In this document: piece after piece, positions 13,051-60,896 of the stretch
How positions within the stretch are numbered: the stretch's first letter is position 1
Layout: each line of letters opens with the position of its first letter
Assembly (NCBI GenBank): GCA_020633895.1
Contig: JACKCT010000002.1
Span: forward strand, 326,055 to 390,054
Direction: 5' to 3'
Source of the DNA: Deltaproteobacteria bacterium
GTDB taxonomy: Bacteria; Lernaellota; Lernaellaia; JACKCT01
Length of the DNA stretch: 64,000 nucleotides
Made by a program: the position numbers and the translations under genes
The notes under the pieces: model-generated
What the model saw: the letters and a program-made list of their open reading frames with translations, nothing else
What the model was told of the DNA's origin: nothing
Database searches by the model: none

Positions 13051-13083
13051 AAAAAAACAAGGGCGCGAGAAACCCCGCGCCCT
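13051..13083 (-). terminator. rho-independent terminator for the Kelch-protein gene
   Basis: Stem AGGGCGCG (13060-13067) / CGCGCCCT (13076-13083). Followed on the minus strand by a T7 run (plus-strand A-run 13051-13057). Confidence 0.65.
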
Positions 13084-13112: not shown

Positions 13113-14276
13113 TTAGCAGCCGCACCCGCTGTCGTCGTCATCGTCATCGTCGTCCGAGACGTCGTCGTCATCGCTCGAGTCGTCATCGTCGTCGTCCGCG
13201 GCGTCATCGTCGTCGTCATCGTCGTCCGTGCCGGGGATGGTCGTGGTGGTCGTCGTCGAGGTTGTCGTCGTGGTCGGCACGGCCGAACCGACGCACAGGC
13301 CGCCGGTGTCGAGGGCGTAATGCAGTTTGTGGGGGGCGGATTCGCTCTTGTCCGAACCGCCGGCGATGTAAATCACGCCGTCCAGGCAGTCCGCCTCGGC
13401 GTAGACGAACTCCTGGGGCAGGTCTGCGTCGGCGCTCCATTTGTCTTCGTCGATGTCGTACGACCACGCGGTCTTGGCTTGGCCGAGGTTGCCGTATCCG
13501 CCCAGGAACAGCAGAAATCCGTCCAGCGCGGTGCCGTATTCGGCATCGGCGCCGGCGGCGGCTGTCGCGGGCAGGTCGTCCATGGCGCCATCGTCCCAGG
13601 CCTCGGTTTCAAAATCGTAGGTTTCGGCCGTTGCCGTGTCCACGACCAGGCTGCCGTTGTTGCCGCCGGCCGCGTATAAATCGTCGCCGAATGACCAGGC
13701 CGCCAGTTCCCAGCCGCCGTGCGTCATGTCGTTCGGGAAAGTCTCCCACGAATCTTTCGTCGGATCGTAGGCGTAGGCCTTGCGGCTCCACGAGCCGACC
13801 TCGTAGTCGTAGCCGCCCAGGACGTACAGGATCCCGTCGATCACCGTGACCGCGTACCCCTCCAGGCCGTTGGCAACCGGCAGGGACGCGCCGGTCGTCC
13901 AGGCGTCGTCGGTGATGTCGTAAATGTAGAGCGTTTTCACGACTCCGGCGACATCCGGGTCGTCGGTGCCGCCGGGGACGTAAATCTTGTCGCCGATGCG
14001 TCCCGCGTCGATCTGCCCCAAGGCCAGGGGCATGGGAGCCATCGTGTCCCAGGTGTCCAGGGCCGGATCGTAGCGATACACCGTGTCTTTCAAGTCGGAC
14101 GTGGCGTCGCCGTCCACGCCGCCGCCGATGTAATAGAGGTAGTCCCCGTCGGAAACGTACGCGCCGCCCCAGCGCGCCTCCGGCAGGGTCGCCTTGGCCT
14201 GCCAGGCCGCCGAAGCCGGCGAGACGACAAACATCAAGAGAACGCAAGAAAGCCGGACTCTTATCCAGGTGCCCAT
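13113..14276 (-). CDS. secreted Kelch-repeat protein with C-terminal Thr-rich linker, poly-Asp tract, and terminal SGCGC
   Basis: Signal peptide MGTWIRVRLSCVLLMFVVSPASAA with GGAGG 5 nt upstream. Kelch-like blade motifs (YYIGGG, IYVPGG, LYVLGGYD, LYAAGGNNG, IYIAGG). Tail PTTTTTSTTTTTTIPGTDDDDDDDDAADDDDDDSSDDDDVSDDDDDDDDSGCGC then stop. Confidence 0.75.
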   Translation of the reverse strand: MGTWIRVRLSCVLLMFVVSPASAAWQAKATLPEARWGGAYVSDGDYLYYIGGGVDGDATSDLKDTVYRYDPALDTWDTMAPMPLALGQIDAGRIGDKIYVPGGTDDPDVAGVVKTLYIYDITDDAWTTGASLPVANGLEGYAVTVIDGILYVLGGYDYEVGSWSRKAYAYDPTKDSWETFPNDMTHGGWELAAWSFGDDLYAAGGNNGSLVVDTATAETYDFETEAWDDGAMDDLPATAAAGADAEYGTALDGFLLFLGGYGNLGQAKTAWSYDIDEDKWSADADLPQEFVYAEADCLDGVIYIAGGSDKSESAPHKLHYALDTGGLCVGSAVPTTTTTSTTTTTTIPGTDDDDDDDDAADDDDDDSSDDDDVSDDDDDDDDSGCGC

Positions 14277-14486
14277 ACGTGCCTCCAATCGATGGAAAAA
14301 GGTTGTCAAAGGTCATTGGTCGCCAATATCGACTTCCAATGACATTTGACCGCCGTGGCAAAACATCCGATTCGCTCGACGTCGCCGATATTTTGCCTTG
14401 GACGCAGGCTCGGCGATACGGTAGGGTGTATTGATAAGAAATTTTTCGGGCGCGTTCGGGGCGCGTTGCGAAGGAGACGTATTGGT

Positions 14487-16148
14487 ATGCGCCGCCTGAT
14501 CTTCGCCCCGATGTTGATGCTCGTCCTCGTCGGCCTTTTTCCCCAACTCGCCCACGCCCGAGTCATCTATTGGGAAGACTTCGAAGGTCCCGACGCCCCC
14601 GAAGGCTGGACGGTTGTCGACAATTCCGGTGGGACGTCGGACGCGCGGTGGGAGTTCGGAGACGGGTACGGCATTCGCATCGGGATGTCGGACGAGTTGC
14701 GGGAGGACTTCGCCGACGAACTCTCCCCGTTCGAGTATGCCGTATTTTTTCTTGGCTACGGTTATGTGAGGCCGGACGTTTACGAGAGACCCGATGATGT
14801 CTTCCTGGTCAACGACATTCTCGCCGGGCGACACACCGGCACTCCCCGGACCAGCCTTCGCAGTCCGCAATTCGCGTGTGAAAATTGCTCATCCCTGACA
14901 ATGCGCTCCACGATAACCGCGGCGTCGGCTTATGTGTCCCTCGATGATACTTGTTATGATGTCTGCATTCCGTTCTTAAGCCGCGAAGGCAATCATCAAG
15001 CCGCGATTTCGGTCACGATCGACGACGATATTGTCCAGACGAAAGAATTACTCTCGTTGCAAAGTAGTCCGCACGATTTCGCCCAGGTCTTGGACATGAG
15101 CCTCGAACCGTCGATTGGCCCGAACGACCCCTTCCGCCTGGATTGGACGTTTGACGGCGAGGCCGAGGCCGACGCCACGGGTTTGATGATGCTGCACGAC
15201 GTGTGCCTTTCTTCGCCTTGCGCGACGCAAATCCAGGTCAAGGAACACGACGATTCAGGTGTCGATCCTCCCGTCAATCTGGATAGTGGTGTCTACTGCC
15301 CGCCCATCCCCGACGCACAGGTGTATTGGAGTCGGGTGGACGTCGTTATCGATTCCAAACGTCCATTGGACTCCTCGTATCGTGTATTGGCGGCTTTTCG
15401 AGCCGATACGTTGGGAGCGCCGGATTGGTATTCCGGCGAAGTGATTCCGATTTATCCGGACGGTTACAGCTATGAGGCGCGCGAGCCGGAGAAGATTCCG
15501 GTTTGGGCTTTTGGCGAATTCGAAACGGGCGCCGATCCCCATTCTTCTCGGGATAAAGATGAGGAAATTCACCCGGCCGTACTTTCCTATTCCTTGTGCG
15601 ACGCGGCTTTTGCCGGACCCGCCGATCCGGATGAGCGGTGGTGCTTCATCCCCATGTACGACGGGCTGTTGATGGACCCGGATTCCTCGGCTGCAAACTC
15701 ATACTATTGGGGAGGAGGCTCGTTCGAGAAGGAATATTTCGTCCCGAGTGACCACCCCTACCTGATCACCGCCGTCTTCGACACGGCCTGCGAGGACCCG
15801 GGTCTGACGCTCGACGGCGTGCCGGTGCCTCTGCCCGGGGTGACTACAACGACCACTGTTCCCCCGACGACGACCACCACTAGCACAACGACCAGCACTT
15901 CCACCACAGCGTCATCGACGACGACGTTGGCGCCCACAACGACGTCGACGACAATTTTGCCGACGACAAGCACGACCGTAGTGTCAACCACGACCACGAC
16001 GACCGTCCCGTCCGAAGCGAATGACGACGATAGCTCCGACGATGATGCCGGCGATGACGACACGGACGACCGGGACCCGCGTGACGCCGACGATGTGGAT
16101 GACGATCGGGACTCGGACGACGGCGACGGCGGGGGCTGCGGGATCTAG
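14487..16148 (+). CDS. secreted protein with choice-of-anchor-like N-terminal domain and C-terminal Thr-rich linker, poly-Asp tract, and terminal GGGCGI
   Basis: ATG at 14487 with AAGGAG 10 nt upstream. Signal peptide MRRLIFAPMLMLVLVGLFPQLAHA. N-terminus IYWEDFEG..GWTVVDN...WEFG resembles choice-of-anchor-type domains. Tail is about 65 aa Thr/Ser-rich, about 45 aa Asp-rich, then GGGCGI and stop. Confidence 0.75.
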   Translation: MRRLIFAPMLMLVLVGLFPQLAHARVIYWEDFEGPDAPEGWTVVDNSGGTSDARWEFGDGYGIRIGMSDELREDFADELSPFEYAVFFLGYGYVRPDVYERPDDVFLVNDILAGRHTGTPRTSLRSPQFACENCSSLTMRSTITAASAYVSLDDTCYDVCIPFLSREGNHQAAISVTIDDDIVQTKELLSLQSSPHDFAQVLDMSLEPSIGPNDPFRLDWTFDGEAEADATGLMMLHDVCLSSPCATQIQVKEHDDSGVDPPVNLDSGVYCPPIPDAQVYWSRVDVVIDSKRPLDSSYRVLAAFRADTLGAPDWYSGEVIPIYPDGYSYEAREPEKIPVWAFGEFETGADPHSSRDKDEEIHPAVLSYSLCDAAFAGPADPDERWCFIPMYDGLLMDPDSSAANSYYWGGGSFEKEYFVPSDHPYLITAVFDTACEDPGLTLDGVPVPLPGVTTTTTVPPTTTTTSTTTSTSTTASSTTTLAPTTTSTTILPTTSTTVVSTTTTTTVPSEANDDDSSDDDAGDDDTDDRDPRDADDVDDDRDSDDGDGGGCGI

Positions 16149-16182: not shown

Positions 16183-16210
16183 AAAACCCGGCCCCATAGG
16201 GCCGGGTTTT
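16183..16210. terminator. bidirectional rho-independent terminator
   Basis: Stem CCCGGCC (16187-16193) / GGCCGGG (16200-16206), loop CCATAG, flanked by AAAAA upstream and TTTT downstream. Serves the plus-strand gene ending at 16148 and the minus-strand tRNA ending at 16212. Confidence 0.7.
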
Positions 16211-16211
16211 G

Positions 16212-16284
16212 TGGTCAGGGACGGGATCGAACCGCCGACACCCGGATTTTCAGTCCAGTGCTCTACCAACTGAGCTACCTGACC
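16212..16284 (-). tRNA. tRNA-Phe (anticodon GAA), 73 nt, CCA not encoded
   Basis: The reverse complement GGUCAGGUAGCUCAGUUGGUAGAGCACUGGACUGAAAAUCCGGGUGUCGGCGGUUCGAUCCCGUCCCUGACCA folds as a canonical cloverleaf with a 7-bp acceptor, D-arm GCUC/GAGC, anticodon loop CUGAAAA, and T-loop GGUUCGAUCC. It closely parallels E. coli tRNA-Phe. Confidence 0.95.
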
Positions 16285-16531: not shown

Positions 16532-17368
16532 ATGAAAAACCTGGGGCGTGTGTTGGGGGTGTTGTTGCTGGTCTTGGGCGCATCCGACGTCGCCTTCGCC
16601 GGCGCCTGGACGCAAGGGCAGTTCAACAGCTACCACAAGCTCTCGGCGGCGTATTACGCCTCCGCCCAGGAATATGACGACAGCGGCCACGTGGTCCCCT
16701 CCACCGGCGAAAAGTATTACCAGGACATCAGCTATACCTACTACGGCGAATTCGGCCTGCTCGACCCGGTCGATCTGAGTCTTTCGCTGCCCTACAAAAC
16801 CGCCTACGTGAACGACGAGGAACGCACCGCCGAGTTCGGCGGCATCGGCGACGTGGAAGGCGGCCTGAAGCTGCGGCTGTATCAGTCGGAGGCGGCGGGC
16901 GTTTTCGCGATTCAAGGCAAGTACAAATACTCGGGCTTCTACGACGAGAACGACTTGGCTCTGCCGCCGGGGCAGGGGCAGGACGACATCGAAGGCCGCC
17001 TGCTCTACGGCCGGTCGCTGTGGCCCTACGGCTATGTCGGCTTGGAGGCGGGCTATCGGGTGCGCTTCGATGAACCGTCCGACGAGTACAAATACCTGGT
17101 GGAATACGGCATCTCCTTCGACCCCGTCTCGTTGCGCGTGAAGCTGGACGGCAGCGAGTCGGCCAAGAACGCCGACGACACCTTCCAAGGGGCGCAGGTC
17201 GACCCCACGTCCGGTCTGGAGGCGTCCTACGGCAAGGTCGAGTTCGCCGTGGGGGTGCATCTGGTGGGTCCGCTGTCGGTGGAGGGCGCGGCGGCGACGA
17301 GCGTTTACGGCAAGCAGACTTCTTACGGCCACACTTACACCGGCGCGGTGGTGTTGCAGTTCAAGTAG
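16532..17368 (+). CDS. putative outer-membrane beta-barrel protein
   Basis: Signal peptide MKNLGRVLGVLLLVLGASDVAFA with GGAGG upstream. Tyr/Gly-rich alternating amphipathic segments and a C-terminal ...VVLQFK (terminal aromatic-X) typical of OM barrels. The overlapping antisense 333-aa ORF is rejected. Confidence 0.65.
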   Translation: MKNLGRVLGVLLLVLGASDVAFAGAWTQGQFNSYHKLSAAYYASAQEYDDSGHVVPSTGEKYYQDISYTYYGEFGLLDPVDLSLSLPYKTAYVNDEERTAEFGGIGDVEGGLKLRLYQSEAAGVFAIQGKYKYSGFYDENDLALPPGQGQDDIEGRLLYGRSLWPYGYVGLEAGYRVRFDEPSDEYKYLVEYGISFDPVSLRVKLDGSESAKNADDTFQGAQVDPTSGLEASYGKVEFAVGVHLVGPLSVEGAAATSVYGKQTSYGHTYTGAVVLQFK

Positions 17369-24134: not shown

Positions 24135-25505
24135 CTACGACACCTTCTCCGGATCAATTCCCAGCGCTTTGATGCGTCGATGCAGGTGCGAGCGCTCCAC
24201 GCCGATCGCCTCGGCGGTGCGGGAGACGTTGCCCTGATTCTCGGTGAGTTTGCGGACCAGGAACGCCCGCTCGAACTCGGCCTTGGCTTCCTTCCAATCG
24301 CTCTGCGCCATGACCCCTTCCAACTCGGTCTCGCCCGCCGCGCCGGGCTTGAGGGCGCCGCGCACATCCGCGCCGGTGACGGTGGACTTGGGCGTCATGA
24401 TGACCAGACGTTCGACGATGTTCTTGAGTTCGCGCACATTGCCCGGCCAATTGTATTCGGTCATCAACTTGACCGCGTCCTCGTCAAATTGCTTGGTGGG
24501 CAGGGCCGAGCGGGTGCAGAAGTGCTCGATGAAATAGTCGATGAGCAGCGGAATGTCCTCGCGACGCTGGCGCAGCGGGACGATGTGCAGCGGGATGACA
24601 TTGAGGCGAAAGTAGAGGTCCTCACGAAACGCGCCGTCCTTGATCATGCCTTCCAGGTCGCGATTCGTCGCGGCGATGACCCGCACGTCGACCGTGATCG
24701 ACTCGGTGCCGCCCACGCGTTCGAATTTCTGTTCCTGGAGGATGCGCAGGATCTTGGCCTGCGTGGTCAGGTCCATGTCGCCGATCTCGTCCAGGAAGAT
24801 CGTCCCGCCGTCGGCCAGATCGAACTTGCCCCGCTTTTTCGACACCGCCCCGGTAAACGCGCCTTTCTCATGGCCGAAGAGTTCCGATTCGATGAGTTGC
24901 TCGGGCAGGGCGGCGCAGTTGACCTCGATGAACGGCTTGTCCCGACGATTGGAATGCAAGTGGATCTGCTGGGCGACCAGTTCCTTGCCGGTGCCGTTTT
25001 CGCCGGTGATGAGCACGCGGGAATCGGACGGCGCGGCCCGCTCCACCTGGGCCTTGAGGTCGCTTACGGCCTCGGACCGGCCGATGATTTCGTACTTGCT
25101 CTCGATGGTCTGGCGCAGGCGCCGGTTCTCGGATTTGAGCTGCGTCATGTCCAGGACGTTGCGGGCGGTGAGCAGCACCTGGTCGATGGACAGGGGCTTT
25201 TCCAGCAGGTCGACGGCGCCCATCTTGATCGCCTTGACCGCCGTCTCGATGGTGCCGTGGCCGCTGATCATGATAACCGGCAGATCCGGGTCGCGCTTCT
25301 TGATTTTTTTGAGCACCTCCATGCCGTCGATGCCGGGCATCCAGATGTCCAGCAGCATCAGGTCCGGCGTGGTCTCGTCCAGCAGCTTGAAGGCCGCCGG
25401 GCCGTCGGGGGCGGTGGAGACGCGAAATCCCTCGTCCTCGAAAATGCCCGCCAATGTGGTGCGGATGTCCGCCTCGTCGTCGACGATCAAAACGTGTTTA
25501 TTCAT
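24135..25505 (-). CDS. sigma-54-dependent response regulator (NtrC/NtrX family)
   Basis: Receiver (LIVDDEADIRTTL...DLMLLDIWMPGIDG). AAA+ sigma-54 interaction domain (GENGTGKELVAQ, ESELFGHEKGAFTGA). C-terminal Fis-type HTH. Confidence 0.9.
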   Translation of the reverse strand: MNKHVLIVDDEADIRTTLAGIFEDEGFRVSTAPDGPAAFKLLDETTPDLMLLDIWMPGIDGMEVLKKIKKRDPDLPVIMISGHGTIETAVKAIKMGAVDLLEKPLSIDQVLLTARNVLDMTQLKSENRRLRQTIESKYEIIGRSEAVSDLKAQVERAAPSDSRVLITGENGTGKELVAQQIHLHSNRRDKPFIEVNCAALPEQLIESELFGHEKGAFTGAVSKKRGKFDLADGGTIFLDEIGDMDLTTQAKILRILQEQKFERVGGTESITVDVRVIAATNRDLEGMIKDGAFREDLYFRLNVIPLHIVPLRQRREDIPLLIDYFIEHFCTRSALPTKQFDEDAVKLMTEYNWPGNVRELKNIVERLVIMTPKSTVTGADVRGALKPGAAGETELEGVMAQSDWKEAKAEFERAFLVRKLTENQGNVSRTAEAIGVERSHLHRRIKALGIDPEKVS

Positions 25506-25570
25506 GGCGGCCTCCCGTGGCCGGGGAGGAAACGTGCGATGGGAATGTCGGCCAGCGATGCGTCATGGGA

Positions 25571-27988
25571 TTACCCGAAGTTGATGATATCCGTGGCGTC
25601 GCGCGGGGCGACGGCGAGGGTGAGGGGAAAGGTGACGACCACGCACGTGCCCTTGGGCTCGTTGTCGCGCATGTCGATGTTCGCGCCGTGATCCTGGAGG
25701 ATCTGGTGCACAATGGCCAGGCCCAAGCCCGTTCCCATTTTCTTCGTCGAAAAATACGGCTCGTACAGCCGCGCCCGATACGCGTCCGGCAGCCCCACGC
25801 CGTCATCAATGACATGCACGTACACGCATTCGTTCTCCTGGTCCACGCCGGTGCGAATAAGCACTTCGCCCTGGCCCGTGACCGCGTCGACGGCGTTGTC
25901 CAACAGGTTGATGAACACTCGTTTGATCTGGGAGCGGTCCAGATTGAGCATCGGCAAGTGGTCGTCGGCGACGAAGGTGAAGCGCACGTCGGCGTGGGCT
26001 TCCGAGTAGAGCACGATCGTTTCGTTGATGATTTCGTTGAGCTGGTTGGGACGCAGTTGCACCTCGGCCAGGCGGGCGAAGTCGGAAAACTCCTGCACCA
26101 GGCGCTTCATCTCCGAGACCTGGCGGATGATCGTGGCGGTGGACTCGAAGAAAACCTGATCCGCCTCGTCGGTGAAGCGATTCCCATACCGCCGACGCAG
26201 TCGCTGGGCCGCCAATTGGATGGGCGTGAGCGGGTTTTTGATCTCGTGGGCGATGCGCCGCGCAATCTCCCGCCAGGCGGCGACACGTTTGGCCTTGATC
26301 AATTCGGTCAGGTCGTCGAGCACCATGACGGCCACGATGTCCTCGCCGCCCACGCTGGTCGGCAGGATCGTCAGGCGCATCAGGATCATGCGCGACTCGC
26401 CCTTGATGGACGCCTCCACCTCCCGTTCGACCGTCTGTCGCGCGTCCTGATTGAACGAATGCATGATCTCGTCAATCTGGGAGCGGGTGAACGCGCCGCC
26501 GAAGGCGTCGTGGTAATGGCGGCCGACGACCGATTCGTCCAGGCCGAGGATCTGTATGGCCTGCTTGTTGATCGTCGAGACCTTGCCGTCCAGGGCGAAG
26601 CCCACCACGCCGGTGGTGATGTTCGCCAGGACTGTCTCCATGTATTGCCGCCGCTGTTCGAGCACCAGATTGGTTTCGCGCAGGTCGTTGTTGGCCCGCG
26701 TCGCCTCCTCGCGAGAGGTTTTCAAATCCTCGATCATGCGGTTGAAGGAATTGATCAGCCGCCCCATCTCGTCGGTGGCGGAAATCTCGATGCGGGCGTC
26801 CAGGTCCCCCGCCGCGACCAGCTCCGTCGCTTCGGCCATGCGTCGGATGGGCACGGCTATGCCTCGGGCGAGGAAGAACCCGAACCACGTGGCCGCGAAG
26901 AAGATGAACATCGAAATCAACGCGAAGATCACGATGTAGCTGGACATGATGGGGTCTTTGAGCAGCAGAAGCTGGCGATAGTCCTCGTAGGTCTTGCGAA
27001 TGGCCTGCATCCGTTGCAGGACGCTTTTCGGAACGAAATAGCTGACCACCACGGCGGCGACCACCTGGTCGTCCACCGTCACCGGCGCCACGCCCCGCAC
27101 CACTTCGCCGTCCCGGAAGGGATAGATTTCGGTGGTCGTTCGGCCTTGGAAGCCCTTGGCGAGGAAGTCGTTGATCGACCGGCCCTCTTCGTCCCGGATG
27201 CGCTTGCGCTTGGCCGAAACGAAGACGGGCGTTTTTTTCGACGGGGTGTAGATCTCCACCATGCCCAGATTGTATTCGCGCTGCTTGGCGTTGATGTGGG
27301 CGGCGACGTGGCCCGTGTCGAACAGGCGCTGAATGCGCTCCTCGCCCGAGTTGACCAGCGACGTCGATTTCGCCGGGGGTTTGTCGCCGTCGGCCGCCGC
27401 GGCCTCGGGAGCCGCCGCCTCGGGAGCTTCGGGCGCGGGAGGCGCAGCCGGGGAGGGGGCCTCCAGGTGCTCGCCCTGGGCCAACTGCTTGGCGAGCGAC
27501 TGGGCGAAGAACTGGGAGTTCTTCTTGTAGGTGCCGTAGTAGTTTTGGGCGACCTCCACCGATTCGGACAGGCTCGTCTCGATTTGCAGCGAGAACCAGT
27601 TGTCGATCGAGCGCGTCACGAAGGTCCACGCGGCGTAGAACATGATGATCGTCGGGATCAGGGCGAAGCCGGTAAACGCCACGACCAGGCGGGCGCGAAG
27701 CTGGGAGCCCAGGATCTTTTGCCGACGCTCGAACAGCAGCTTGGCCAGGTTGCGCAGGATCAGGAACAGCAGGACGCAGATGAAGATGACGTTCAGGTTG
27801 ATCAGGCCGAAGAACAGGATGTTGCTCCAGAAGGAGTACACCTTGGGGATCGGCAGGGCGATGCGTTCGACCAGGAACAAAACAAACAACAGCGCCAGGA
27901 TGGCCATCGCCCACTTGAGCTCGCGGCGCATGCGGCGGTCGGTGACTTTGGGGTCGGGGAGCTTGTCGACGTCGCGGGACGGGCTCAT
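25571..27988 (-). CDS. sensor histidine kinase, NtrY-like (N-terminal TM block, HAMP, PAS, HisKA, HATPase_c)
   Basis: H-box IAHEIKNPLTPIQL. G-boxes GTGLGLAIV. Four N-terminal TM helices and a HAMP linker. Paired with the adjacent sigma-54 regulator. Confidence 0.9.
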   Translation of the reverse strand: MSPSRDVDKLPDPKVTDRRMRRELKWAMAILALLFVLFLVERIALPIPKVYSFWSNILFFGLINLNVIFICVLLFLILRNLAKLLFERRQKILGSQLRARLVVAFTGFALIPTIIMFYAAWTFVTRSIDNWFSLQIETSLSESVEVAQNYYGTYKKNSQFFAQSLAKQLAQGEHLEAPSPAAPPAPEAPEAAAPEAAAADGDKPPAKSTSLVNSGEERIQRLFDTGHVAAHINAKQREYNLGMVEIYTPSKKTPVFVSAKRKRIRDEEGRSINDFLAKGFQGRTTTEIYPFRDGEVVRGVAPVTVDDQVVAAVVVSYFVPKSVLQRMQAIRKTYEDYRQLLLLKDPIMSSYIVIFALISMFIFFAATWFGFFLARGIAVPIRRMAEATELVAAGDLDARIEISATDEMGRLINSFNRMIEDLKTSREEATRANNDLRETNLVLEQRRQYMETVLANITTGVVGFALDGKVSTINKQAIQILGLDESVVGRHYHDAFGGAFTRSQIDEIMHSFNQDARQTVEREVEASIKGESRMILMRLTILPTSVGGEDIVAVMVLDDLTELIKAKRVAAWREIARRIAHEIKNPLTPIQLAAQRLRRRYGNRFTDEADQVFFESTATIIRQVSEMKRLVQEFSDFARLAEVQLRPNQLNEIINETIVLYSEAHADVRFTFVADDHLPMLNLDRSQIKRVFINLLDNAVDAVTGQGEVLIRTGVDQENECVYVHVIDDGVGLPDAYRARLYEPYFSTKKMGTGLGLAIVHQILQDHGANIDMRDNEPKGTCVVVTFPLTLAVAPRDATDIINFG

Positions 27989-28626
27989 GGCGACGCCTCG
28001 CTATCGGCGTCCGGCGCGTCGCCCGCGGGGGGCGCCTCGGCCGGGGGCTGGGGCGGCAATTCCACCTTGGCCCAGCGCGTCTCGAAGTCCCAAAGGGCTG
28101 AAAAGATAAAGAAATCAGACAAGTTCAGCGGCACATCCACCTGGTCGAGTTGGGCCTTGATCTGGACGTAGTAGGGCCCTTCGTCCGTCAGGGACCCGCG
28201 AACCGCGACCGGCATGTCGGTGAACTGCGTCATCAGCTTTTGCGCCTCGTCGAGGCGGTTGACGGTGATCGTCTGACCTTTTTCGCCCAAAAGAACGGTG
28301 TAGACCTCGCGAATGTTATCGTAATGCACCGTCCGGCGGACCTGAAATTCGGCGATGCGTTCGTCAAACCACGCGGTCACATGGCGCTTAACGCGAAAAA
28401 GGTAGGTGAAGGTGGTGGGGATGCCGGCCTGGATGGCCTCTTCCAGATCCTCGGTGAAGGCGCCGTCCACCTGGAAGCTGACAAGATAGGCCTGGCCGTC
28501 GGCTCGGGCCGAAAGCTCGGCGATGCCGGCGCCGCGCACGCTCTGGGCATGGGAAGGCGTTACCCAAGTGCTGAAAAACACTAGGAAAGCAACGAATATC
28601 CCCAGGTGGCGTTCAAGACATCGCAT
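27985..28626 (-). CDS. DUF4390-like periplasmic protein commonly encoded upstream of NtrY-type kinases
   Basis: Signal peptide. Stop overlaps the kinase start (ATGA). This arrangement is typical for DUF4390. Confidence 0.6.
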   Translation of the reverse strand: MRCLERHLGIFVAFLVFFSTWVTPSHAQSVRGAGIAELSARADGQAYLVSFQVDGAFTEDLEEAIQAGIPTTFTYLFRVKRHVTAWFDERIAEFQVRRTVHYDNIREVYTVLLGEKGQTITVNRLDEAQKLMTQFTDMPVAVRGSLTDEGPYYVQIKAQLDQVDVPLNLSDFFIFSALWDFETRWAKVELPPQPPAEAPPAGDAPDADSEASP

Positions 28627-33408: not shown

Positions 33409-34104
33409 TTAGCCGACGCCGCCGGAGGTCTTGCGGTAGCCGATGTGACGCACGTCTTCGCCGCCCACCAGGAAGATGACCTGCTCGGCCATGTTCTCGG
33501 CGTGGTCGCCCATGCGCTCCAGGTATTTGGCGACGGATTGGACGTGAATGCCCCGCTCGACGAGTTGGGGGTCGGCGACCATCAATTCGAGCAGATCGGC
33601 GAAGATTTCGTCGTAGAGATCGTCGACCTCGTCATCCCGGTCGATGACATTATTGGCCAGTTGAGGATCGGTGTTGACCAGGGCGTCGATGGCGTCGCGC
33701 ACCATGGACTGCACCAACTCGCCCATCTTGGGGATGTCGTGGTAGGGCTTGAGGGGCTCCGCGGCGTTCAGGTCGATCGCCCGCTCGGCGATATTCACCG
33801 CCAGGTCGCCCACGCGCTCCAATTCGCCGACCATTTTGTGCGTCTGAAGCAGGAAGCGCAGGTCCACGCCCATCGGCTGCCGGCGCGCCAGAATGCGCCA
33901 GCACTGGTCGTCGATGGCCACTTCGTCGCCGTTGACGGCGGCGTCCTGCTTGATCACCTGGCGTGCGATGTCCGAGTCCCGGTCCACCAACGCCCGCATC
34001 GCGCCGTCGATCATCTCCTCCACGCGCCCGGCCATCAGCAGCAGGCGGTCCCGGAGGAGGCGGAGTTCTTCTTCGAAGGCACGATCGGTATGTTGAGCGG
34101 GCAT
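33409..34104 (-). CDS. phoU: phosphate signalling complex protein PhoU
   Basis: Two PhoU repeats (E/DxxxD motifs, e.g. ERVGDLAVNIAERA and ERMGDHAENMAEQV). Located downstream of pstB. Confidence 0.9.
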   Translation of the reverse strand: MPAQHTDRAFEEELRLLRDRLLLMAGRVEEMIDGAMRALVDRDSDIARQVIKQDAAVNGDEVAIDDQCWRILARRQPMGVDLRFLLQTHKMVGELERVGDLAVNIAERAIDLNAAEPLKPYHDIPKMGELVQSMVRDAIDALVNTDPQLANNVIDRDDEVDDLYDEIFADLLELMVADPQLVERGIHVQSVAKYLERMGDHAENMAEQVIFLVGGEDVRHIGYRKTSGGVG

Positions 34105-34225
34105 GGGCACCTCACTTAGCGCAAATGCGTGAACAAGATACAAGATGTAGTACCTTTGCATCTTGCCGTCCGGACAAAACTTAGTCCAGACTAAAAATCA
34201 TGATGCCACAAAATATCCGAAATGC

Positions 34226-35008
34226 CTAACCAAATTTTCCGGTGATGTATTCGTCGGTCTGCTGTTTGGTGGGTTTTGTGAAGATGCTGTCGGTATCGTT
34301 GAATTCGATCAGCTCGCCCATGAGGAAGAACGCGGTCCGATCGGACACCCGGGCGGCCTGCTGCATATTGTGCGTGACGATGACGATCGTGTAGTTCTCG
34401 CGCAGGCTGTGGATCAAGTCCTCGATGCGCGCCGTGGCGATGGGATCCAGGGCGGAGCAGGGCTCGTCCATGAGGATCACGTCCGGGTCCACGGCCAGCG
34501 CCCGGGCGATGCACAGCCGCTGTTGCTGCCCGCCGGACAGGCCCGATCCCAACTTGTTGAGTTCGTCCTTCACCTCGTCCCACAACGCCGCCTGGCGAAG
34601 CGCCCGCTCGACGATCTGCGCATCGTTGGATTTGCTGGAAGTCTTCGTCAGGCGAAGTCCGGCCAGCACGTTTTCGCGGATGGTCATCGTGGGGAAGGGG
34701 TTGGGCTTCTGGAAAACCATCCCCACCTTGCGACGCAGCCGGGCCGGGTCGACATTGGGGTGGTTGATGTCCTGCCCCTCGAGCACGATGCTGCCTTCCA
34801 CCCGGGCGCCGGGGACGATCTCGTGCATCCGGTTCAGGCAGCGGATGAAGGTGGACTTGCCGCAACCGGACGGGCCGATGATGGCCGTCACCCCGCCGGT
34901 GGGAATCTGCATTTCGATGCCCTTGAGCACCAAGGTCTTGCCGTACCAGGCTTTGAGGCCCGACACGGAAAACTGGGGATTATCGATGGGCGATTGCCGA
35001 AGGGGCAT
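34226..35008 (-). CDS. pstB: phosphate ABC transporter ATP-binding protein
   Basis: Walker [10 protein letters not shown]. Signature [14 protein letters not shown]. Walker B ILMDEP. Confidence 0.95.
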
Positions 35009-35012
35009 TCAA

Positions 35013-35861
35013 TCAACTCCGCCGCTGATATTTCTGACGCAAGTAAATCGCCAGCGCATTGAACATCAAAAGAATCGCCATCAGAACCATGATCCCCGCC
35101 GCCGCGTTGATGACGAATTCGGGCTGGGGCCTGGAGACCCAGTTGAAAATCTGGATCGGCAACGCGGTAAACGGCGACATGGGCCCGTCGGGCAGGAAGG
35201 TCACGTAGGTCAGGGCGCCGATCGCGATCAGGGGCGCGGTCTCGCCGATGGCGCGGGAGATGGCCAGGATCGAACCGGTCAGCATGCCGGGCAGGGCCAT
35301 GGGCACCACCACCTGGCGGATGGCCTGCCACTTGGTTGAGCCCAGGGCGTAGCAGCCTTCCCGCAGGCCGTTGGGCACGGTGGCCAGCGCCTCCCGGGAG
35401 GCGACGATGATGATCGGCAGGATCAGCAGCGCCAACGTCAGCGCCCCGGACATCAAGCTCTGGCCGAAATTGGCGAAACGCACAAAAATCTCCAAGCCCA
35501 GCAGGCCGTAGATGATCGACGGCACTCCCGCCAGATTGGCGATGTTCACCTCGATCAGGCGGGTGAGCCAGTTGTCGCCGCCGTATTCTTCCAGATAGAT
35601 CGCCGCGCCGATGCCCACCGGGACGGCGAACGCGCCGGTCAGGCCGATGAGGTAAATGCTGCCCACCAGGGCCGGTTTGATGCCCGCCAATTCCGCCTTG
35701 CGCGAAGGCAGGCTGGTCAGAAAACTCCACGTCAGGCGGCCGGCGCCGTCCATGACCACGTCGGCCAGCAGCACGAACAGCATCGCCAGCGGGACGAGCA
35801 CGGCGAACAGGCAAAGCCCGATAAACGCCTTCTCCCATTTTTCCACGCCGGTGCGATACAT
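35013..35861 (-). CDS. pstA: phosphate ABC transporter permease PstA
   Basis: Six-TM permease with EAA-like loop ([14 protein letters not shown]). Position follows E. coli pstSCAB order. Confidence 0.9.
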
Positions 35862-36800
35862 CTAGAGCTTCCCTCGGAATTTTCGCGCCAGCCGCTGGCT
35901 GAGCATGTTCATCGCCAGGGTCATCAAAAACAGCGACGCGCCGACCACGAAGATCGTTTTGTATTCCAACGTGCCGTGGGGCGTGTCGCCCATGGATACC
36001 TGCACGATGTACGCGGTCATGGTCTCGATGGGCACGCGGGGGTCCATGGTCAGGCGCGGCTGCTGGCCCGCGGCGATGGCCACGACCATCGTCTCGCCGA
36101 TGGCGCGGGAGATGGCCAGCGTCACCGACGCGGCGATGCCCGACAAGGCCGCGGGGATCACCACCCGCACAATCGTCGGCAAGCGCCGGGCGCCCAGGGC
36201 GTACGCCCCCTCCCGCAGGGCGCGGGGAACGGCGTAAATCGCGTCCTCGGACAGGGAGGCGATCATCGGCGTAATCATGACGCCCATGATGATGCCCGGA
36301 CTCAGGGCGTTAAATCCCGCCAGACCCGGGACGATCTTTTGCAGCAGGGGCGTGAGGAAAACCAAGGCGAAGTAGCCGTACACGATGGACGGAACGCCCG
36401 CCAGGATTTCCAGCATGGGTTTGAGAATCCGGCGCGCCCGCTCGTCGGCGAACTCGGACAGATAGATCGCCGAAAGCAAGCCGAAAGGCAGGGCCACCGC
36501 GATCGCCACCAGCGTGGTGAGCATGGTGCCCGCCACCAGCGGCCAGATGCCGAAATGCTTGTCGACGAACAGGGGGGTCCATTGGGTGTCGCCCAAAAAA
36601 CGGGAGATGGGCACTTCGCGGAAGAACGAAATCGTCTCGTAGGCCAGCACCAGGACGATGCCGATGGTCGTGAAGATCGACAGGACGCCGCACGCCCTCA
36701 GGACGATTTCGATCACACGCTCGGGCCACGGAGTCGCCGAACGTGTCAGATAACCGGCCGCCGGGGCGACCGGGCTAAACTCTGGGGAATTCGCGGCCAC
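35862..36800 (-). CDS. pstC: phosphate ABC transporter permease PstC
   Basis: Permease with EAA loop ([12 protein letters not shown]). Immediately downstream of pstS. Confidence 0.9.
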
Positions 36801-36838
36801 GATTCGTCTTTCGGGTCAACCCGGATGGGAAGTGGGGA

Positions 36839-37969
36839 TTAGCCGGCGGAGCCTTCTTCGGTCTTGGGGGCCTCGGCCGCCGGAGCTTCTTCCGCCGTGC
36901 CCTCGGGGGCGCCCTCGGCCGCCTCGCCGGTGCCTTCCTTGGAGAGCAGCTCCTCGACCGTCACGCCCACCGTCGCGCCGCCGCCGGCGAAGACCGAGCC
37001 GGTGGTGCGGGACTCGAAGCGCGCCTTGGCCAACTCATAGGCTTTGTCCGGCAGCGGGATATAGCCCACCTCCTTGACCAGGCCCGGCGTGCTCAGATAG
37101 TGCGTCACGAACTCGGTCACGATGGGCCGGGTGTCGGCTTCCTTCTTGTTGACGTAGATGAAGATCGGCCGGGACAAGGGTTGGTATGTGCCGTCGCCGA
37201 CGGATTCCAGGGAGGGCGGAATGGCCTTGGCGTCCTTGTCCATCTTGATCGACGCCACGTTCAGGCGCTCGGTGTTTTCCGCGTAGTAGGCGAAGCCGAA
37301 AAAGCCCAGGCCGTATTTGTCCGTCGCCACGCCCTGCACCAGGACGTTGTCGTCCTCGCTGGCCGTGAAGTCGCCCCGGCTGGAGTGCTCCGTGCCCACG
37401 ATGGCCTGCGTGAAGTAGTCATAGGTGCCCGAGTCCACGCCGGGACCGAACAGATGCAGTTCCTCTTTCGGCCAGCCGTCGCGCACGTCCGACCATTTCA
37501 TGACCTTGCCCTGGGCCTCGGGCTCCCACATCTTCTTGAGTTCCTCGACGGTCATCTCGCCGGCCCAGTCGTTCTCCTTGTTGAGCACGACCGCGATGCC
37601 GTCATAGGCCACGGGGATCTCGACATATTCCACGCCCGCCGCCTTGCAGTCGGCCATTTCCGATTCCTTGATGGGACGGGAGGCGTCCGAGATCGCGGTC
37701 TCGGCCCGGCAGAATTTCTTGAATCCGCCGCCCGTGCCCGAAACGCCGATGGTGATGCGCACCTCCGGGTGCTTGGCGCGGAAGGCCTCGGCCATGGCTT
37801 CGGAGATCGGATAGACCGTGGAGGAACCGTCGATGGCGATGGCTTGTGCTTGGGCCGGCGGGGGCGCGCCCGGCTCTCCCCCGGGGGAGGAAGCGTTTTG
37901 CGTGCAGGCCGACAGCAGCAAAGCCGTCAGCATGGCGGTCATCACGGCAAGGAGGGGGCGCGTGTTCAC
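36839..37969 (-). CDS. pstS: phosphate ABC transporter substrate-binding lipoprotein PstS with a low-complexity Ala/Glu/Pro-rich C-terminal extension
   Basis: GTG start at 37969 with GAGG 6 nt upstream. Lipobox LLLSAC. PBP fold motifs (GSSTVYP, SGTGGG). The ORF-track N-terminal extension is rejected. Confidence 0.85.
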
Positions 37970-38055
37970 AGTCACCTCGCTCAAGCTTGGGAGATTTGTT
38001 GAATGAGTCAAAGCGTTGCCAAAACGGAACGATAGGAAATCACGATGGCCCGAGA

Positions 38056-59783: not shown

Positions 59784-60896
59784 TTACCCGTTCGGGTCGT
59801 GCCAGGCGCAGCGGAAGCCCACATGGTCGGAGATGCCCGAGGCCTCGACGGCGTTGCGGTGGGACAGGCGCAGCCACGTCTCGTTGAAGTCGTACTTCCA
59901 GGCGCCGCCCTTGACGATGGCCAGGGCGCCTTCCCGAGGGCCTTGGGGATCGGCGGACGGGGCGTCGGCGTAGTAGTCGGAATCGTAGTTGTCCGCGACC
60001 CATTCCCAGACGTTGCCGGACAGATTCAGCGCGCCGTAGGGCGAGGCGAAGTCGGCATAGGCGTCCACCGGCGCTGTAATGTTGTAGCCGTCCGGCGGAA
60101 CACACGGATTGGGCATCCCATTGCTCACGCAGTCCGCCCAGTTGGCGGCGTCTTCCTGCCAGACGTTGCCCCAGGGCCAAATGCGCCCGTCCTCGCCCCG
60201 TCCGGCCTTTTCCCACTCCGCCTCGGTGGGCAGGCGTCGGCCCAGCCATCGGCAGTACGTCCGCGCCATTTCGCGGTTGACGCCGATCGCCGGCTGTTCG
60301 TCGCTGACCAGATAGCCCTTTTCCTCGCCGATCGCCGAGGCCTGGCACTCGCCCGCCGCGACGCATTCGTCGTACGCCTCGAAGGACACTTCGGTCTTGT
60401 CGATCCAAAATTCGGAGAGTTCGACCTGATGGAAGGGCTGCTCGTTCTCGTAGCCGGGCAGGCCGCACAGCGGATCGGCCTCGTTGTCCGGATTGCATCC
60501 CATCCAAAACGGCCCCGCCGGCACCTGCACCATATTCTCACCCGGCTCATCAGCCAGGTAACTGTCGTCGTCATCATCGCCGGAGTCGTCGTCGGTCGCG
60601 TCATCGTCGTCGTCGGTGGCGGAGGAATCGTCGTCATCCCCGGCGCATCCGCCGCATCCGCCCGAGCTGTCGTCGTCGCCGGCCGCGTCGTCGATGTGGG
60701 CGGTCGCGTCGTCATCGTCGTCGGCCCCGTCGTCGTCGACCGTCGTCGTCTCGTCGCCGTCAAAGTCGTCCCCCGCCTCCGACCGGCACGCCGGAAAGGC
60801 CAGAAACGCCGCCAGTCCGAACAGCAGCACCATCACCGACGTCGCGGCGGGCGGCATCGAAACGCGCTGAAGGATGGGGGAATAACCGGATATCAT
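59784..60896 (-). CDS. formylglycine-generating-enzyme (FGE/SUMF1) family protein with N-terminal poly-Asp/GGCGGC acidic segment
   Basis: C-terminal FGE-sulfatase domain blocks (WMGCNPDNE, RVELSEFWIDKTEV, LPTEAEWEKAGRGEDGRIWPWGN, NVWEWVAD, VKGGAWKYD, HRNAVEASGISDHVGFRC). After the signal peptide: GDDFDGDETTTVDDDGADDDDDATAHIDDAAGDDDSSGGCGGCAGDDDDSSATDDDDDATDDDSGDDDDD. Start uncertain (60896 or 60857). Confidence 0.75.
   Translation of the reverse strand: MISGYSPILQRVSMPPAATSVMVLLFGLAAFLAFPACRSEAGDDFDGDETTTVDDDGADDDDDATAHIDDAAGDDDSSGGCGGCAGDDDDSSATDDDDDATDDDSGDDDDDSYLADEPGENMVQVPAGPFWMGCNPDNEADPLCGLPGYENEQPFHQVELSEFWIDKTEVSFEAYDECVAAGECQASAIGEEKGYLVSDEQPAIGVNREMARTYCRWLGRRLPTEAEWEKAGRGEDGRIWPWGNVWQEDAANWADCVSNGMPNPCVPPDGYNITAPVDAYADFASPYGALNLSGNVWEWVADNYDSDYYADAPSADPQGPREGALAIVKGGAWKYDFNETWLRLSHRNAVEASGISDHVGFRCAWHDPNG

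What the first reader, a model, noticed from the sequence alone, without database searches (positions are those of the whole stretch)
13113..16148. Divergent pair of secreted proteins sharing an undescribed C-terminal module: Thr-rich linker, poly-Asp tract, terminal G-C-G-[C/I]
Two unrelated secreted proteins are transcribed divergently from a shared ~210-bp promoter region. One is a Kelch beta-propeller (13113-14276, minus). The other has a choice-of-anchor-like N-terminus (14487-16148, plus). Both end in the same three-part tail: a long Thr/Ser run (PTTTTTSTTTTTT; ~65 aa of T/S in the second), then an almost pure Asp tract (30-45 aa), then the last residues SGCGC-stop and GGGCGI-stop. There is no hydrophobic helix, Arg cluster, LPXTG, PEP, or T9SS-like signal. 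Choice-of-anchor-type domains normally pair with known sorting signals (PEP-CTERM, MYXO-CTERM, T9SS CTD). This tail therefore occupies the slot of a sorting or attachment signal but matches none I know. The nearest analogue, MYXO-CTERM, has a GC motif but is followed by a TM helix and basic residues that are absent here. Poly-Asp tracts are classic Ca2+/mineral-surface binders. The terminal Cys pair could be a lipidation, thioether or metal-binding site. The Thr-rich linker is a typical O-glycosylation substrate, and GT-C/PMT-like, GT87 and DPM1-like GT2 genes lie in the same window.
Basis: partly seen in the sequence, partly recalled or inferred. Interest (0 to 1): 0.8.

Follow-up and report, generated by a model that had tools for sequence, protein, structure and literature searches.

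The report
Poly-aspartate tail ending in Gly-Cys-Gly-Cys
Two neighbouring secreted proteins end in a long run of aspartates followed by Gly-Cys-Gly-Cys/Ile, and the same unmodelled tail sits on dozens of unrelated secreted enzymes in a few uncultured bacteria (one labelled FEN-1099/Lernaellota), so it is most likely a new kind of cell-surface anchoring tag.

Summary
A Kelch protein (13113-14276, minus) and an orphan protein (14487-16148, plus) both have Sec signal peptides. Both end in a poly-Asp tract followed by SGCGC-stop or GGGCGI-stop, and each stop is followed by a terminator hairpin.

- **Conservation.** The tail is not a local oddity. All five Kelch orthologs (28-53% identity) keep poly-Asp plus GC[CG]G(C).
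- **Distribution.** DNA-pattern scans found about 60 more proteins with this end. In the genome scan they all lie in seven unclassified MAGs, one labelled FEN-1099 (Candidatus Lernaellota).
- **Passenger domains.** These include C25, M14 and S8 peptidases, SBBP propellers, a GH43-like domain and Kelch.
- **Models.** No Pfam or NCBIfam model matches the tail.
- **Closest known signal.** The tail shares the "generic GCGC" signature of MYXO-CTERM. It lacks the transmembrane helix and Arg cluster that define MYXO-CTERM and every other tripartite sorting signal.
- **Mirror image in lipoproteins.** Lipoproteins in the same organisms carry poly-Asp directly after the lipidated Cys (…AAGC-GDDDDD). No protein has both ends (0 of 68).

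My reading is that this is a C-terminal tether: a polyanionic spacer plus a terminal Cys attachment point. This is inferred, not shown.

The Thr-rich linker is optional. The choice-of-anchor call is sub-threshold, and the link to the glycosyltransferase genes is untested.

The parts
13113..14276 (-). Gene for a secreted Kelch beta-propeller protein with the tail (387 aa; NCBI MCB9487845.1 / MCB9477791.1)
   Evidence: ORF. Pfam Kelch_1 E=6.6e-35 and five other Kelch models above cutoff. The 387-aa start matches the sibling-MAG entry.
14208..14276 (-). Sec (SPase I type) signal peptide MGTWIRVRLSCVLLMFVVSPASA
   Evidence: Read from the translation. It has an n-region with Arg, a hydrophobic core and an ASA|A site. 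There is no lipobox.
13227..13277 (-). Thr-rich linker PTTTTTSTTTTTTIPGT (residues 334-350); an optional element
   Evidence: It is present in 3 of 6 Kelch family members.
13131..13226 (-). Poly-Asp tract: 32 aa with 26 Asp, using mixed GAC/GAT codons
   Evidence: TRF reports an imperfect 3-nt/12-nt array at 13131-13226, 66-73% matches.
13116..13130 (-). Terminal motif S-G-C-G-C, followed by the TAA stop at 13113-13115
   Evidence: G384, C385 and G386 are invariant in the ortholog alignment.
13060..13083 (-). Intrinsic terminator after the Kelch gene (10-bp stem, T7 tail)
14277..14486 (.). 210-bp divergent intergenic region
   Evidence: Coordinates. The consensus scan found no sigma-70-like site in it.
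14487..16148 (+). Gene for a secreted orphan protein with the tail (553 aa; NCBI MCB9487846.1)
   Evidence: ORF. An exact match exists in the protein collection. There is no homologue in 5.8e9 or 1.84e9 proteins.
14487..14558 (+). Sec signal peptide MRRLIFAPMLMLVLVGLFPQLAHA
   Evidence: AHA|R cleavage site, no lipobox.
15840..16013 (+). Thr/Ser-rich linker, 58 aa (residues 452-509)
16014..16127 (+). Acidic tract, 38 aa with 22 Asp, 1 Glu and 3 Arg
16128..16145 (+). Terminal motif G-G-G-C-G-I, followed by the TAG stop at 16146-16148. This is the only unpaired Cys of the mature protein (11 Cys in all).
16187..16210 (+). Hairpin (8-bp stem, loop CATA) plus TTTT after the gene, abutting tRNA-Phe (16211-16284, minus)
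   Evidence: Read from the sequence. tRNA. The consensus terminator scan did not list it.
59784..60863 (-). Related feature: an FGE-sulfatase-domain lipoprotein with a lipobox (LAFPAC) followed by an N-terminal poly-Asp linker that contains SSGGCGGCAG

Best explanation
The tail is a lineage-specific C-terminal tethering or sorting tag for Sec-exported proteins. It has two parts: an extended, disordered polyanionic spacer (poly-Asp, sometimes preceded by a Thr-rich stretch) and a terminal G-C-[G/C]-x0-2 motif. The Cys of that motif is the attachment point.

Proposed course:
1. The protein crosses the inner membrane through Sec, and signal peptidase I removes the leader.
2. The folded passenger domain (protease, glycosidase or propeller) reaches the envelope or cell surface.
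3. The terminal Cys is covalently modified. S-lipidation is the most likely modification, as is proposed for the GCGC Cys of MYXO-CTERM. A disulfide or thioether to an envelope component is the alternative.
4. The enzyme therefore stays on the cell, held at the end of a roughly 30-70-residue acidic leash.

Shown: export signals, conservation, modularity, the absence of any known model, mutual exclusivity with lipoboxes, and the use of the same spacer next to the lipidated Cys of lipoproteins.

Inferred: the modification, its chemistry, the enzyme that makes it, and the final location.
For: 1. Conservation under divergence. Kelch orthologs at 28-53% identity all keep poly-Asp plus GC[CG]G(C), while the linker sequence drifts.
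2. Modularity. The same end occurs on Peptidase_C25 with its propeptide, Peptidase_M14, subtilisin-like domains, SBBP/DUF5122 propellers, a GH43-like domain, an MXAN_6640-type metalloprotease and Kelch. Whole families keep the tail across 3-5 genomes.
3. Specificity. In lineage loci 30 of 30 Asp-rich C-termini end in the GC motif, against 0 of 9 elsewhere. In the genome scan every true hit falls in 7 unclassified MAGs, one named FEN-1099. The metagenome scan added about 29 more.
4. Export. Nearly all tail proteins with a complete N-terminus have SPase-I-type signal peptides.
5. Anchor logic. The nearest NCBIfam models of the passenger domains are proteins anchored in other ways in other phyla: LipL53 and PDIAV lipoproteins, T9SS-dependent proteases and PorU-like C25.
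6. Mirror image. Thirteen or more lipoproteins in the same loci read ...[A/S][G/A]C-(G)DDDDD. None of these has a GC tail, and none of the 55 tail proteins has such a lipobox N-terminus.
7. Literature parallel. The MYXO-CTERM signature is described as a 'generic GCGC motif' next to a disordered region, with the Cys predicted to be lipidated (PMC11980579; bioRxiv 10.1101/2023.06.07.544157).
8. A free thiol. In protein B the tail Cys is the eleventh, unpaired Cys.
Against: - No experiment of any kind exists. The organisms are uncultured.
- No candidate processing or lipidating enzyme recurs near the roughly 50 tail loci. None beyond housekeeping Lgt and LspA is in the window.
- Without a transmembrane segment it is unclear how a soluble acidic C-terminus would be presented to a membrane-embedded acyltransferase. 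The known bacterial Cys lipidation enzyme (Lgt) needs a membrane-embedded lipobox.
- The residues after the first Cys vary (C, K, R, N, I, S, F, A, RH, RG), so the second Cys is not essential.
- Most of the motif statistics come from loci selected with a pattern that already required G-C-[G/C/W].
Confidence: 0.5

Rival explanations
1. Non-covalent retention or mineral and cation binding. The poly-Asp tract binds Ca2+/Mg2+ and sticks the enzymes to LPS, cationic exopolysaccharide or carbonate/phosphate mineral surfaces. The terminal Cys residues only make intermolecular disulfides (dimers or networks) or chelate a metal. There is no dedicated sorting enzyme.
For: - Each tail carries 22-26 acidic residues and almost no basic ones.
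- Long D3-x2 periodic repeats (DDDTx, DDDAx) occur in many carriers.
- No processing enzyme was found near any tail locus.
- Poly-Asp binding of Ca2+ and of mineral surfaces is established chemistry (my own knowledge: calsequestrin, Asprich/Aspein, Asp8 bone-targeting tags).
- Vicinal or CxC Cys motifs can be redox or metal sites.
Against: - Poly-Asp alone does not explain the near-invariant G-C at the very end (30 of 30 against 0 of 9).
- It does not explain the strict mutual exclusivity with lipoboxes.
- The same poly-Asp tract serves as a plain linker behind the lipid anchor of lipoproteins. That argues it is a spacer rather than the binding element.
Confidence: 0.22
2. Export or recognition signal rather than an anchor. 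The acidic tail with its GC end is recognised by an outer-membrane translocation system (T2SS-like or unknown). It is then clipped off, and the enzymes are released free.
For: - The carriers are classic secreted hydrolases.
- C25 and other protease families that use a T9SS C-terminal domain in Bacteroidota carry this tail here.
- The tail is always at the extreme C-terminus.
Against: - Known T2SS substrates have no linear signal, and the T9SS signal is a folded domain.
- The parallel with lipoprotein tethers and the exclusivity with lipoboxes fit anchoring better than transit.
- No secretion-system genes were seen next to tail genes.
Confidence: 0.12
3. Functionless low-complexity expansion. 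A lineage with a mutational or selective taste for Asp-rich disordered segments has them at protein ends by drift, and the GC ending is a founder effect.
For: - Asp-rich linkers are everywhere in these genomes, at N-termini, internally and at C-termini.
- The DNA is an imperfect GTC/GAC trinucleotide array.
- Tract lengths vary freely among orthologs.
Against: - The GC ending is kept on unrelated protein families and across genomes whose orthologs share only 28-53% identity. A founder effect cannot place it on non-homologous genes.
- GAC and GAT codons are mixed, so selection acts on the protein.
- The tail is confined to signal-peptide proteins.
Confidence: 0.08
4. It is a true member of the MYXO-CTERM family: a divergent MYXO-CTERM processed by a myxosortase.
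For: - It shares the GCGC signature and an upstream disordered region.
- Tail A gives a very weak alignment to the pre-anchor region of an MXAN_5453-family MYXO-CTERM protein (E=8.6).
Against: - The transmembrane helix and Arg cluster are absent in every example.
- TIGR03901 does not hit.
- MYXO-CTERM is reported only from Myxococcota and Bradymonadales.
- An intramembrane CPBP protease has nothing to cut here.
Confidence: 0.03

Closest known systems
MYXO-CTERM sorting signal (NCBIfam TIGR03901) with myxosortase MrtX
   Same: - A Cys-containing signature, described as a 'generic GCGC motif', at the C-terminus of Sec-exported adhesins and hydrolases.
- It is preceded by an intrinsically disordered region.
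- Dozens of carriers per genome.
- The Cys is thought to be the lipid attachment site (PMC11980579; bioRxiv 10.1101/2023.06.07.544157).
   Different: - Here the protein stops 0-3 residues after the motif.
- There is no transmembrane helix and no Arg cluster, so nothing is available for an intramembrane protease to remove.
- The spacer is almost pure Asp.
- The lineage is FEN-1099-like, not Myxococcota or Bradymonadales.
- The HMM does not hit.
Bacterial lipoproteins (lipobox, Lgt/LspA pathway)
   Same: - A terminal Cys lies next to a disordered tether.
- In these same organisms the lipoprotein tether is poly-Asp (C-G-DDDDD), the mirror image of DDDDD-G-C.
- The two features never occur in the same protein.
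   Different: - The lipobox is N-terminal and embedded in a signal peptide that presents the Cys to Lgt in the membrane.
- The tail is C-terminal, hydrophilic, and preceded by Asp rather than by [LVI][ASTVI][GAS].
Eukaryotic and archaeal CaaX and Rab CXC/CC prenylation motifs
   Same: A Cys sits 1-4 residues from a free C-terminus with no transmembrane segment (CGC, CCGC, CCG, CGI). These are the only well-known lipidation signals of that geometry.
   Different: - Those substrates are cytosolic and their prenyltransferases are cytosolic.
- The proteins here carry Sec signal peptides and are exported.
- The resemblance is recalled from memory and was not tested.
T9SS C-terminal domain of gingipain-type proteins
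   Same: - It occupies the same slot on the same kind of passenger (Peptidase_C25 with propeptide and other secreted proteases).
- It serves surface attachment.
   Different: - The T9SS signal is a folded beta-sandwich of about 80 residues (PF18962/TIGR04183), which PorU cleaves before attachment to A-LPS.
- The tail here is low-complexity and matches no such model.
Poly-Asp Ca2+ and mineral-binding proteins (calsequestrin C-tail, Asprich/Aspein)
   Same: Long, nearly pure Asp tracts carrying tens of negative charges.
   Different: - Those are eukaryotic and have no terminal Gly-Cys motif.
- They are not modular tags on enzymes.
- The comparison is from memory only.

Membership tests
MYXO-CTERM (TIGR03901) | Short signature motif with an invariant Cys (often GCGC) close to the C-terminus | tested here: met
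   SGCGC and GGGCGI in the window. GCGC is the commonest ending overall: 15 of 32 and 23 of 33.
MYXO-CTERM (TIGR03901) | Hydrophobic transmembrane helix directly after the motif | tested here: not met
   The stop codon comes 0-3 residues after the motif. No hydrophobic segment lies downstream in frame. No tripartite C-termini occur in 262 kb of lineage loci.
MYXO-CTERM (TIGR03901) | Arg-rich cluster at the extreme C-terminus | tested here: not met
   no basic cluster in any example.
MYXO-CTERM (TIGR03901) | Match to the family HMM | tested here: not met
   NCBIfam scans of the full proteins and of isolated tails gave no TIGR03901 hit, even at E<=10.
MYXO-CTERM (TIGR03901) | Cognate CPBP-family myxosortase (core model NF040914) in the same genome | not testable with these tools
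   Only 64 kb of the genome is available. No CPBP-like multi-pass protein is in the window.
Bacterial lipoprotein (Lgt/LspA substrates) | Lipobox [LVI][ASTVI][GAS]C at the end of an N-terminal signal peptide | tested here: not met
   Both window proteins and the other complete tail proteins have AxA-type SPase I sites and no lipobox. None of 55 tail proteins has a lipobox followed by poly-Asp.
T9SS C-terminal sorting domain | Folded C-terminal domain of about 80 aa matching PF18962/TIGR04183 | tested here: not met
   No such hit in Pfam or NCBIfam for either window protein or for C25-type carriers.
CaaX / Rab-type prenylation motif | Cys within the last four residues of a free C-terminus | tested here: met
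   CGC, CGI, CCGC and CCG endings.
CaaX / Rab-type prenylation motif | Cytosolic substrate (no export signal) | tested here: not met
   Sec signal peptides are present on both window proteins and on the other carriers.
Choice-of-anchor J domain (NF038128), for protein B | HMM score above the curated cutoff over the domain | tested here: not met
   15.8 bits against a cutoff of 30. Only model positions 2-32 of 162 align. Nothing was found in the full-length scan.
Kelch beta-propeller, for protein A | Repeated Kelch motifs above Pfam gathering scores | tested here: met
   Kelch_1 118.7 bits, Kelch_6 101.1 bits, and propeller-level models PF24681 and PF24981.

The most novel reading that the evidence does not exclude
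This would be the first prokaryotic C-terminal anchoring signal that works without a transmembrane helix. It would be a genetically 'pre-trimmed' Cys anchor (poly-Asp leash plus G-C-G-C-COOH), the mirror image of the lipoprotein N-terminus. It would be lipidated or otherwise covalently attached outside the cytoplasm by an enzyme not yet known, and used by Lernaellota-like bacteria to hold dozens of proteases and glycosidases on their surface.
Probability: 0.3. Interest if true: 0.85.

Novelty: new variant of a known kind. Interest (0 to 1): 0.62.

Why it matters
Every described prokaryotic C-terminal sorting signal is either tripartite (motif, transmembrane helix, basic cluster) or a folded domain. 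The tripartite group includes LPXTG, PEP-CTERM, PGF-CTERM, GlyGly-CTERM and the Cys-bearing MYXO-, JDVT-, Synerg- and CGP-CTERM signals.

A tag that consists only of an acidic leash and a terminal Gly-Cys motif would add a new architecture. It would also bear on the open question of how and by what enzyme the Cys of MYXO-CTERM-type signals is modified, because here no protease step is needed.

The tag also marks the surface and secreted degradative proteome of a barely studied candidate phylum (Lernaellota/FEN-1099), which has been inferred to be proteolytic and saccharolytic (PMC9324843). It gives annotators a simple signature that is currently labelled 'hypothetical'.

On the practical side, a roughly 40-residue self-contained tag with about 25 negative charges and a unique thiol could be useful for display or immobilisation.

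Tried and rejected
- **Protein-database search with an alignment of 20 tails (A2).** 8000 candidates were collected and none scored E<=10. HMMER's composition filters defeat this low-complexity query, so it says nothing about distribution. Two earlier attempts failed on parameter limits.
- **Homologs of protein B's N-domain.** Only the protein itself was found, both in the word-indexed 5.8e9 set and in the exhaustive phmmer search of 1.84e9 representatives.
- **AlphaFold2 on the protein B domain, single sequence.** Mean pLDDT was 31 and pTM 0.19, which is unusable, so I ran no fold search.
- **Stop-codon read-through or frameshift into a hidden transmembrane helix.** Rejected. No hydrophobic segment lies in frame after any of 30 stops, and terminators follow both window genes. 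The share of TGA stops (20 of 30) fits the GC content and does not suggest recoding.
- **Neighbourhood search for a processing enzyme.** All-against-all BLAST of 345 ORFs from 51 tail loci (415 kb) found no recurrent non-tail family beyond local synteny.
- **Window annotation.** It contains RND efflux, an acyltransferase, GT2 genes, GlmS, two-component systems, Pst/PhoU, Lgt and LspA, but no CPBP, rhomboid or sortase-like gene.
- **Literature.** No paper in the held library combines 'C-terminal sorting', 'aspartate-rich' and 'cysteine'. The four papers that mention Lernaellota do not describe the tail.
- **Shared promoter.** The consensus scan found no sigma-70-like site in the 210-bp gap, so co-regulation is neither shown nor excluded.


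Full report
**1. The observation**

Both ORFs exist as described.

The minus-strand gene at 13113-14276 encodes a 387-aa protein.
- It has a Sec signal peptide (MGTWIRVRLSCVLLMFVVSPASA|A).
- Kelch repeats fill the body (Pfam Kelch_1 E=6.6e-35, and propeller-level models PF24681 and PF24981 above cutoff).
- The C-terminus reads PTTTTTSTTTTTTIPGT, then 32 residues of which 26 are Asp, then SGCGC-TAA.
- A 10-bp-stem terminator follows at 13060-13083.
- NCBI's start for this gene (373 aa, MCB9487845.1) cuts off the signal peptide. A sibling MAG entry has the 387-aa form.

The plus-strand gene at 14487-16148 encodes a 553-aa protein (MCB9487846.1).
- Its signal peptide ends ...QLAHA|R.
- It has a 58-aa Thr/Ser-rich run, then a 38-aa acidic tract with 22 Asp, then GGGCGI-TAG.
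- An 8-bp hairpin plus TTTT follows at 16187-16210 and abuts tRNA-Phe.

The two starts are 210 bp apart. Neither protein has a hydrophobic helix or basic cluster after the Cys motif. None is hidden behind the stop codons.

**2. Is the tail conserved?**

Yes. The closest Kelch homologues in a 5.8-billion-protein collection all end in an Asp-rich tract followed by a Gly-Cys motif:
- P0003, 51% identity, from GCA_019912885.1: GCCGC.
- P0004, 49% identity: GGCCGC.
- P0005, 35% identity: SGCCG.

Two further family members from a MAG named 'FR-FEN-1099-1' do the same. In the six-sequence alignment the only invariant tail columns are Asp positions and G-C-G. The Thr-rich stretch is present in three of the six, so it is not a fixed part of the module.

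**3. How widespread is it?**

I ran a degenerate DNA pattern (five Asp codons, a gap of up to 30 nt, G-C-[G/C/W], then a stop within 1-2 codons) over one genome per GTDB species.
- After translation, 31 genuine tail ORFs remained (32 ORFs passed the filter; one, an archaeal His/Asp-rich protein in L048, is a false positive).
- All 31 sit in seven MAGs that are labelled only 'bacterium', or 'Deltaproteobacteria bacterium ... FEN-1099'.
- The other roughly 85 loci (Actinobacteria, Proteobacteria and others) are chance matches with no such ORF.

FEN-1099 is Candidatus Lernaellota (PMC9324843). I did not verify the phylum of the window's own MAG or of the other six. That is an inference from shared orthologs and shared style.

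A stricter pattern run on metagenome contigs added about 29 more tail proteins, again often several per contig.

The endings are GCGC (most common), GCCGC, GCCG, GCGK/R/N/S/F/I, GCGRH, GCGRG, GCGCS, GCGA and GCA. The pattern forced G-C-[G/C/W], so these counts are biased. Two observations are less affected by that bias:
- About nine examples were not found through the pattern, and all have the G-C: both window proteins, P0003-P0005, and extra neighbours in L009 and L095.
- In lineage loci 30 of 30 Asp-rich C-termini end this way. In unrelated loci 0 of 9 do.

**4. What carries it?**

Nearly all tail proteins with a complete N-terminus have SPase-I-type signal peptides. The passenger domains are diverse:
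- Peptidase_C25 with its propeptide (weakly PorU-like).
- Peptidase_M14.
- Subtilisin-like domains.
- An MXAN_6640-type metalloprotease.
- A GH43-like domain.
- SBBP/DUF5122 propellers.
- Kelch.

Several of these families keep the tail across three to five genomes. Their nearest curated models are proteins that other phyla anchor by other means, such as Leptospira LipL53 and PDIAV lipoproteins and T9SS-dependent proteases. That is the pattern expected of an interchangeable anchor.

Protein B itself is an orphan. Only the protein itself was found in both large searches. The single-sequence structure model is useless (pLDDT 31). The 'choice-of-anchor' idea rests on a 15.8-bit hit to the first 31 positions of NF038128, against a cutoff of 30.

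**5. Is it a known domain?**

No model in Pfam (2025) or NCBIfam 20.0 (June 2026) matches the tails, whether scanned in context or alone at E<=10.

The closest described signal is MYXO-CTERM.
- Its signature is called a 'generic GCGC motif'.
- It sits after a disordered region on Sec-exported surface hydrolases and adhesins.
- Its Cys is predicted to be lipidated before the CPBP protease MrtX removes the rest (PMC11980579; bioRxiv 10.1101/2023.06.07.544157).
- MYXO-CTERM is defined by a tripartite architecture. The transmembrane helix and Arg cluster are absent here in every case, and TIGR03901 does not hit.

Membership therefore fails on defining features. The functional analogy (Cys as attachment site) remains open.

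**6. An unexpected parallel**

The same loci contain at least 13 lipoproteins whose lipobox Cys is followed at once by poly-Asp. Examples are LTALAAGC-GDDDDDSSADDD and FLVISC-DDDDDDDDD.
- One lies in the window: the FGE-sulfatase-domain lipoprotein at 59784-60863. Its acidic linker even contains GGCGGC. It is followed directly by lspA and lgt.
- Poly-Asp is therefore this lineage's ordinary tether between a lipid-bearing Cys and a folded domain.
- The C-terminal tail is its mirror image (DDDDD-G-C).
- No protein has both ends: 0 of 13 and 0 of 55.

This is the strongest argument, though an indirect one, that the tail Cys is an attachment point and the Asp tract a leash.

**7. Mechanism**

Best reading (confidence about 0.5):
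- The protein is exported through Sec.
- The terminal Cys is covalently modified, by lipid as proposed for MYXO-CTERM, or by a disulfide or thioether to an envelope component.
- The enzyme is retained on the cell at the end of an acidic spacer.

The steps that are shown and the steps that are inferred are listed in the structured fields.

The main weaknesses are these:
- No candidate enzyme was found.
- There is no obvious way to present a soluble acidic C-terminus to a membrane transferase.
- There is no experiment.

Rivals:
- Purely electrostatic or mineral binding with disulfide cross-links (0.22).
- A transit signal that is later removed (0.12).
- Drift of low-complexity sequence (0.08).
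- True MYXO-CTERM membership (0.03).

**8. Context in the window**

The flanking genes give no functional link to the tail. They are RND efflux, an LPLAT-type acyltransferase, tRNA-Phe, an unclassified signal-peptide protein, a weak GT87 hit, two GT2 genes and GlmS. The GT87 and PMT_2 hits are below gathering thresholds. O-glycosylation of the Thr-rich linkers is plausible but untested.

**9. Verdict**

The sequence feature is real, conserved, modular, restricted to a lineage and not modelled in current libraries. It is best filed as a new variant within the class of Cys-bearing C-terminal sorting or anchoring signals. It is notable for lacking the tripartite architecture.

Limits:
- Both collection scans were truncated.
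- The tail could not be searched at the protein level.
- The taxonomy of most carrier MAGs is unverified.
- All function is inferred.

Noticed in passing
window 59784-60863 (-), 59018-59611 (-), 57535-58977 (-): An FGE-sulfatase-domain lipoprotein (lipobox LAFPAC) has an N-terminal poly-Asp linker containing SSGGCGGCAG. It sits directly upstream of lspA (Peptidase_A8) and lgt. The listed lgt ORF has a 157-aa Arg/Pro/Gly-rich N-terminal extension that is probably not translated (the real start is near MHPILFTVFG), and a Lys-rich C-terminal tail.
   Followed up: partly
L008, L021, L022, L044, L053, L058, L095, L110, L116, L153, L213, L219 (coordinates): Lipoproteins of the tail-bearing lineage place a poly-Asp linker immediately after the lipobox Cys (for example AAGC-GDDDDD). 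Some also have a second Cys two residues on (CNC, CDC). None of them carries the C-terminal GC tail.
   Followed up: yes
window 14559-15836 (+): The N-terminal domain of protein B has no detectable homologue in 5.8e9 or 1.84e9 proteins. Its GC3 is 0.69, against about 0.85 for neighbouring genes, so it may be a young, fast-evolving or acquired gene. The mature domain has 10 Cys.
   Followed up: yes
L054, L095, L009, L139, L144, L147, L155, L181, L219: Tail-bearing genes are often adjacent to one another, with two or three in a row. Some are paralogues and some are unrelated, so the window's pair is one instance of a general clustering. The divergent orientation is not conserved.
   Followed up: partly
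L062, L071, L064, L060, L052, L096, L188, L213: Gingipain-family (Peptidase_C25) proteins with propeptides carry the poly-Asp-GC tail. They give weak, sub-cutoff hits to the T9SS sortase PorU models. I did not examine whether they are ordinary proteases or have a transpeptidase role.
   Followed up: no
window 13113-14276 (-): The NCBI annotation of the Kelch gene (MCB9487845.1, 373 aa) starts inside the signal peptide. The ATG at 14276 (387 aa, as in MCB9477791.1 from a sibling MAG) restores a complete Sec leader.
   Followed up: yes
window 16532-17368 (+) and 38089-40083 (-): Two sizeable ORFs have no Pfam or NCBIfam match. One is a 278-aa signal-peptide protein just past tRNA-Phe. The other is a 664-aa protein with about six hydrophobic segments, next to a weak PMT_2-like gene (39800-41518).
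   Followed up: no
window 13227-13277 (-); L002, L096, L113: Where a Thr-rich linker is present, its junction with the Asp tract is often T-T-I-P-[G/A]-(T)-D-D-D. This short conserved hinge occurs in Kelch and C25 carriers from different genomes.
   Followed up: no
window 24135-28626 (-) and 41537-44013 (-): There are two paralogous sensor-kinase and response-regulator pairs. One is NtrY-like with a sigma-54 activator and a DUF4390 protein. A Pst/PhoU phosphate-uptake cluster lies at 33409-38062.
   Followed up: no
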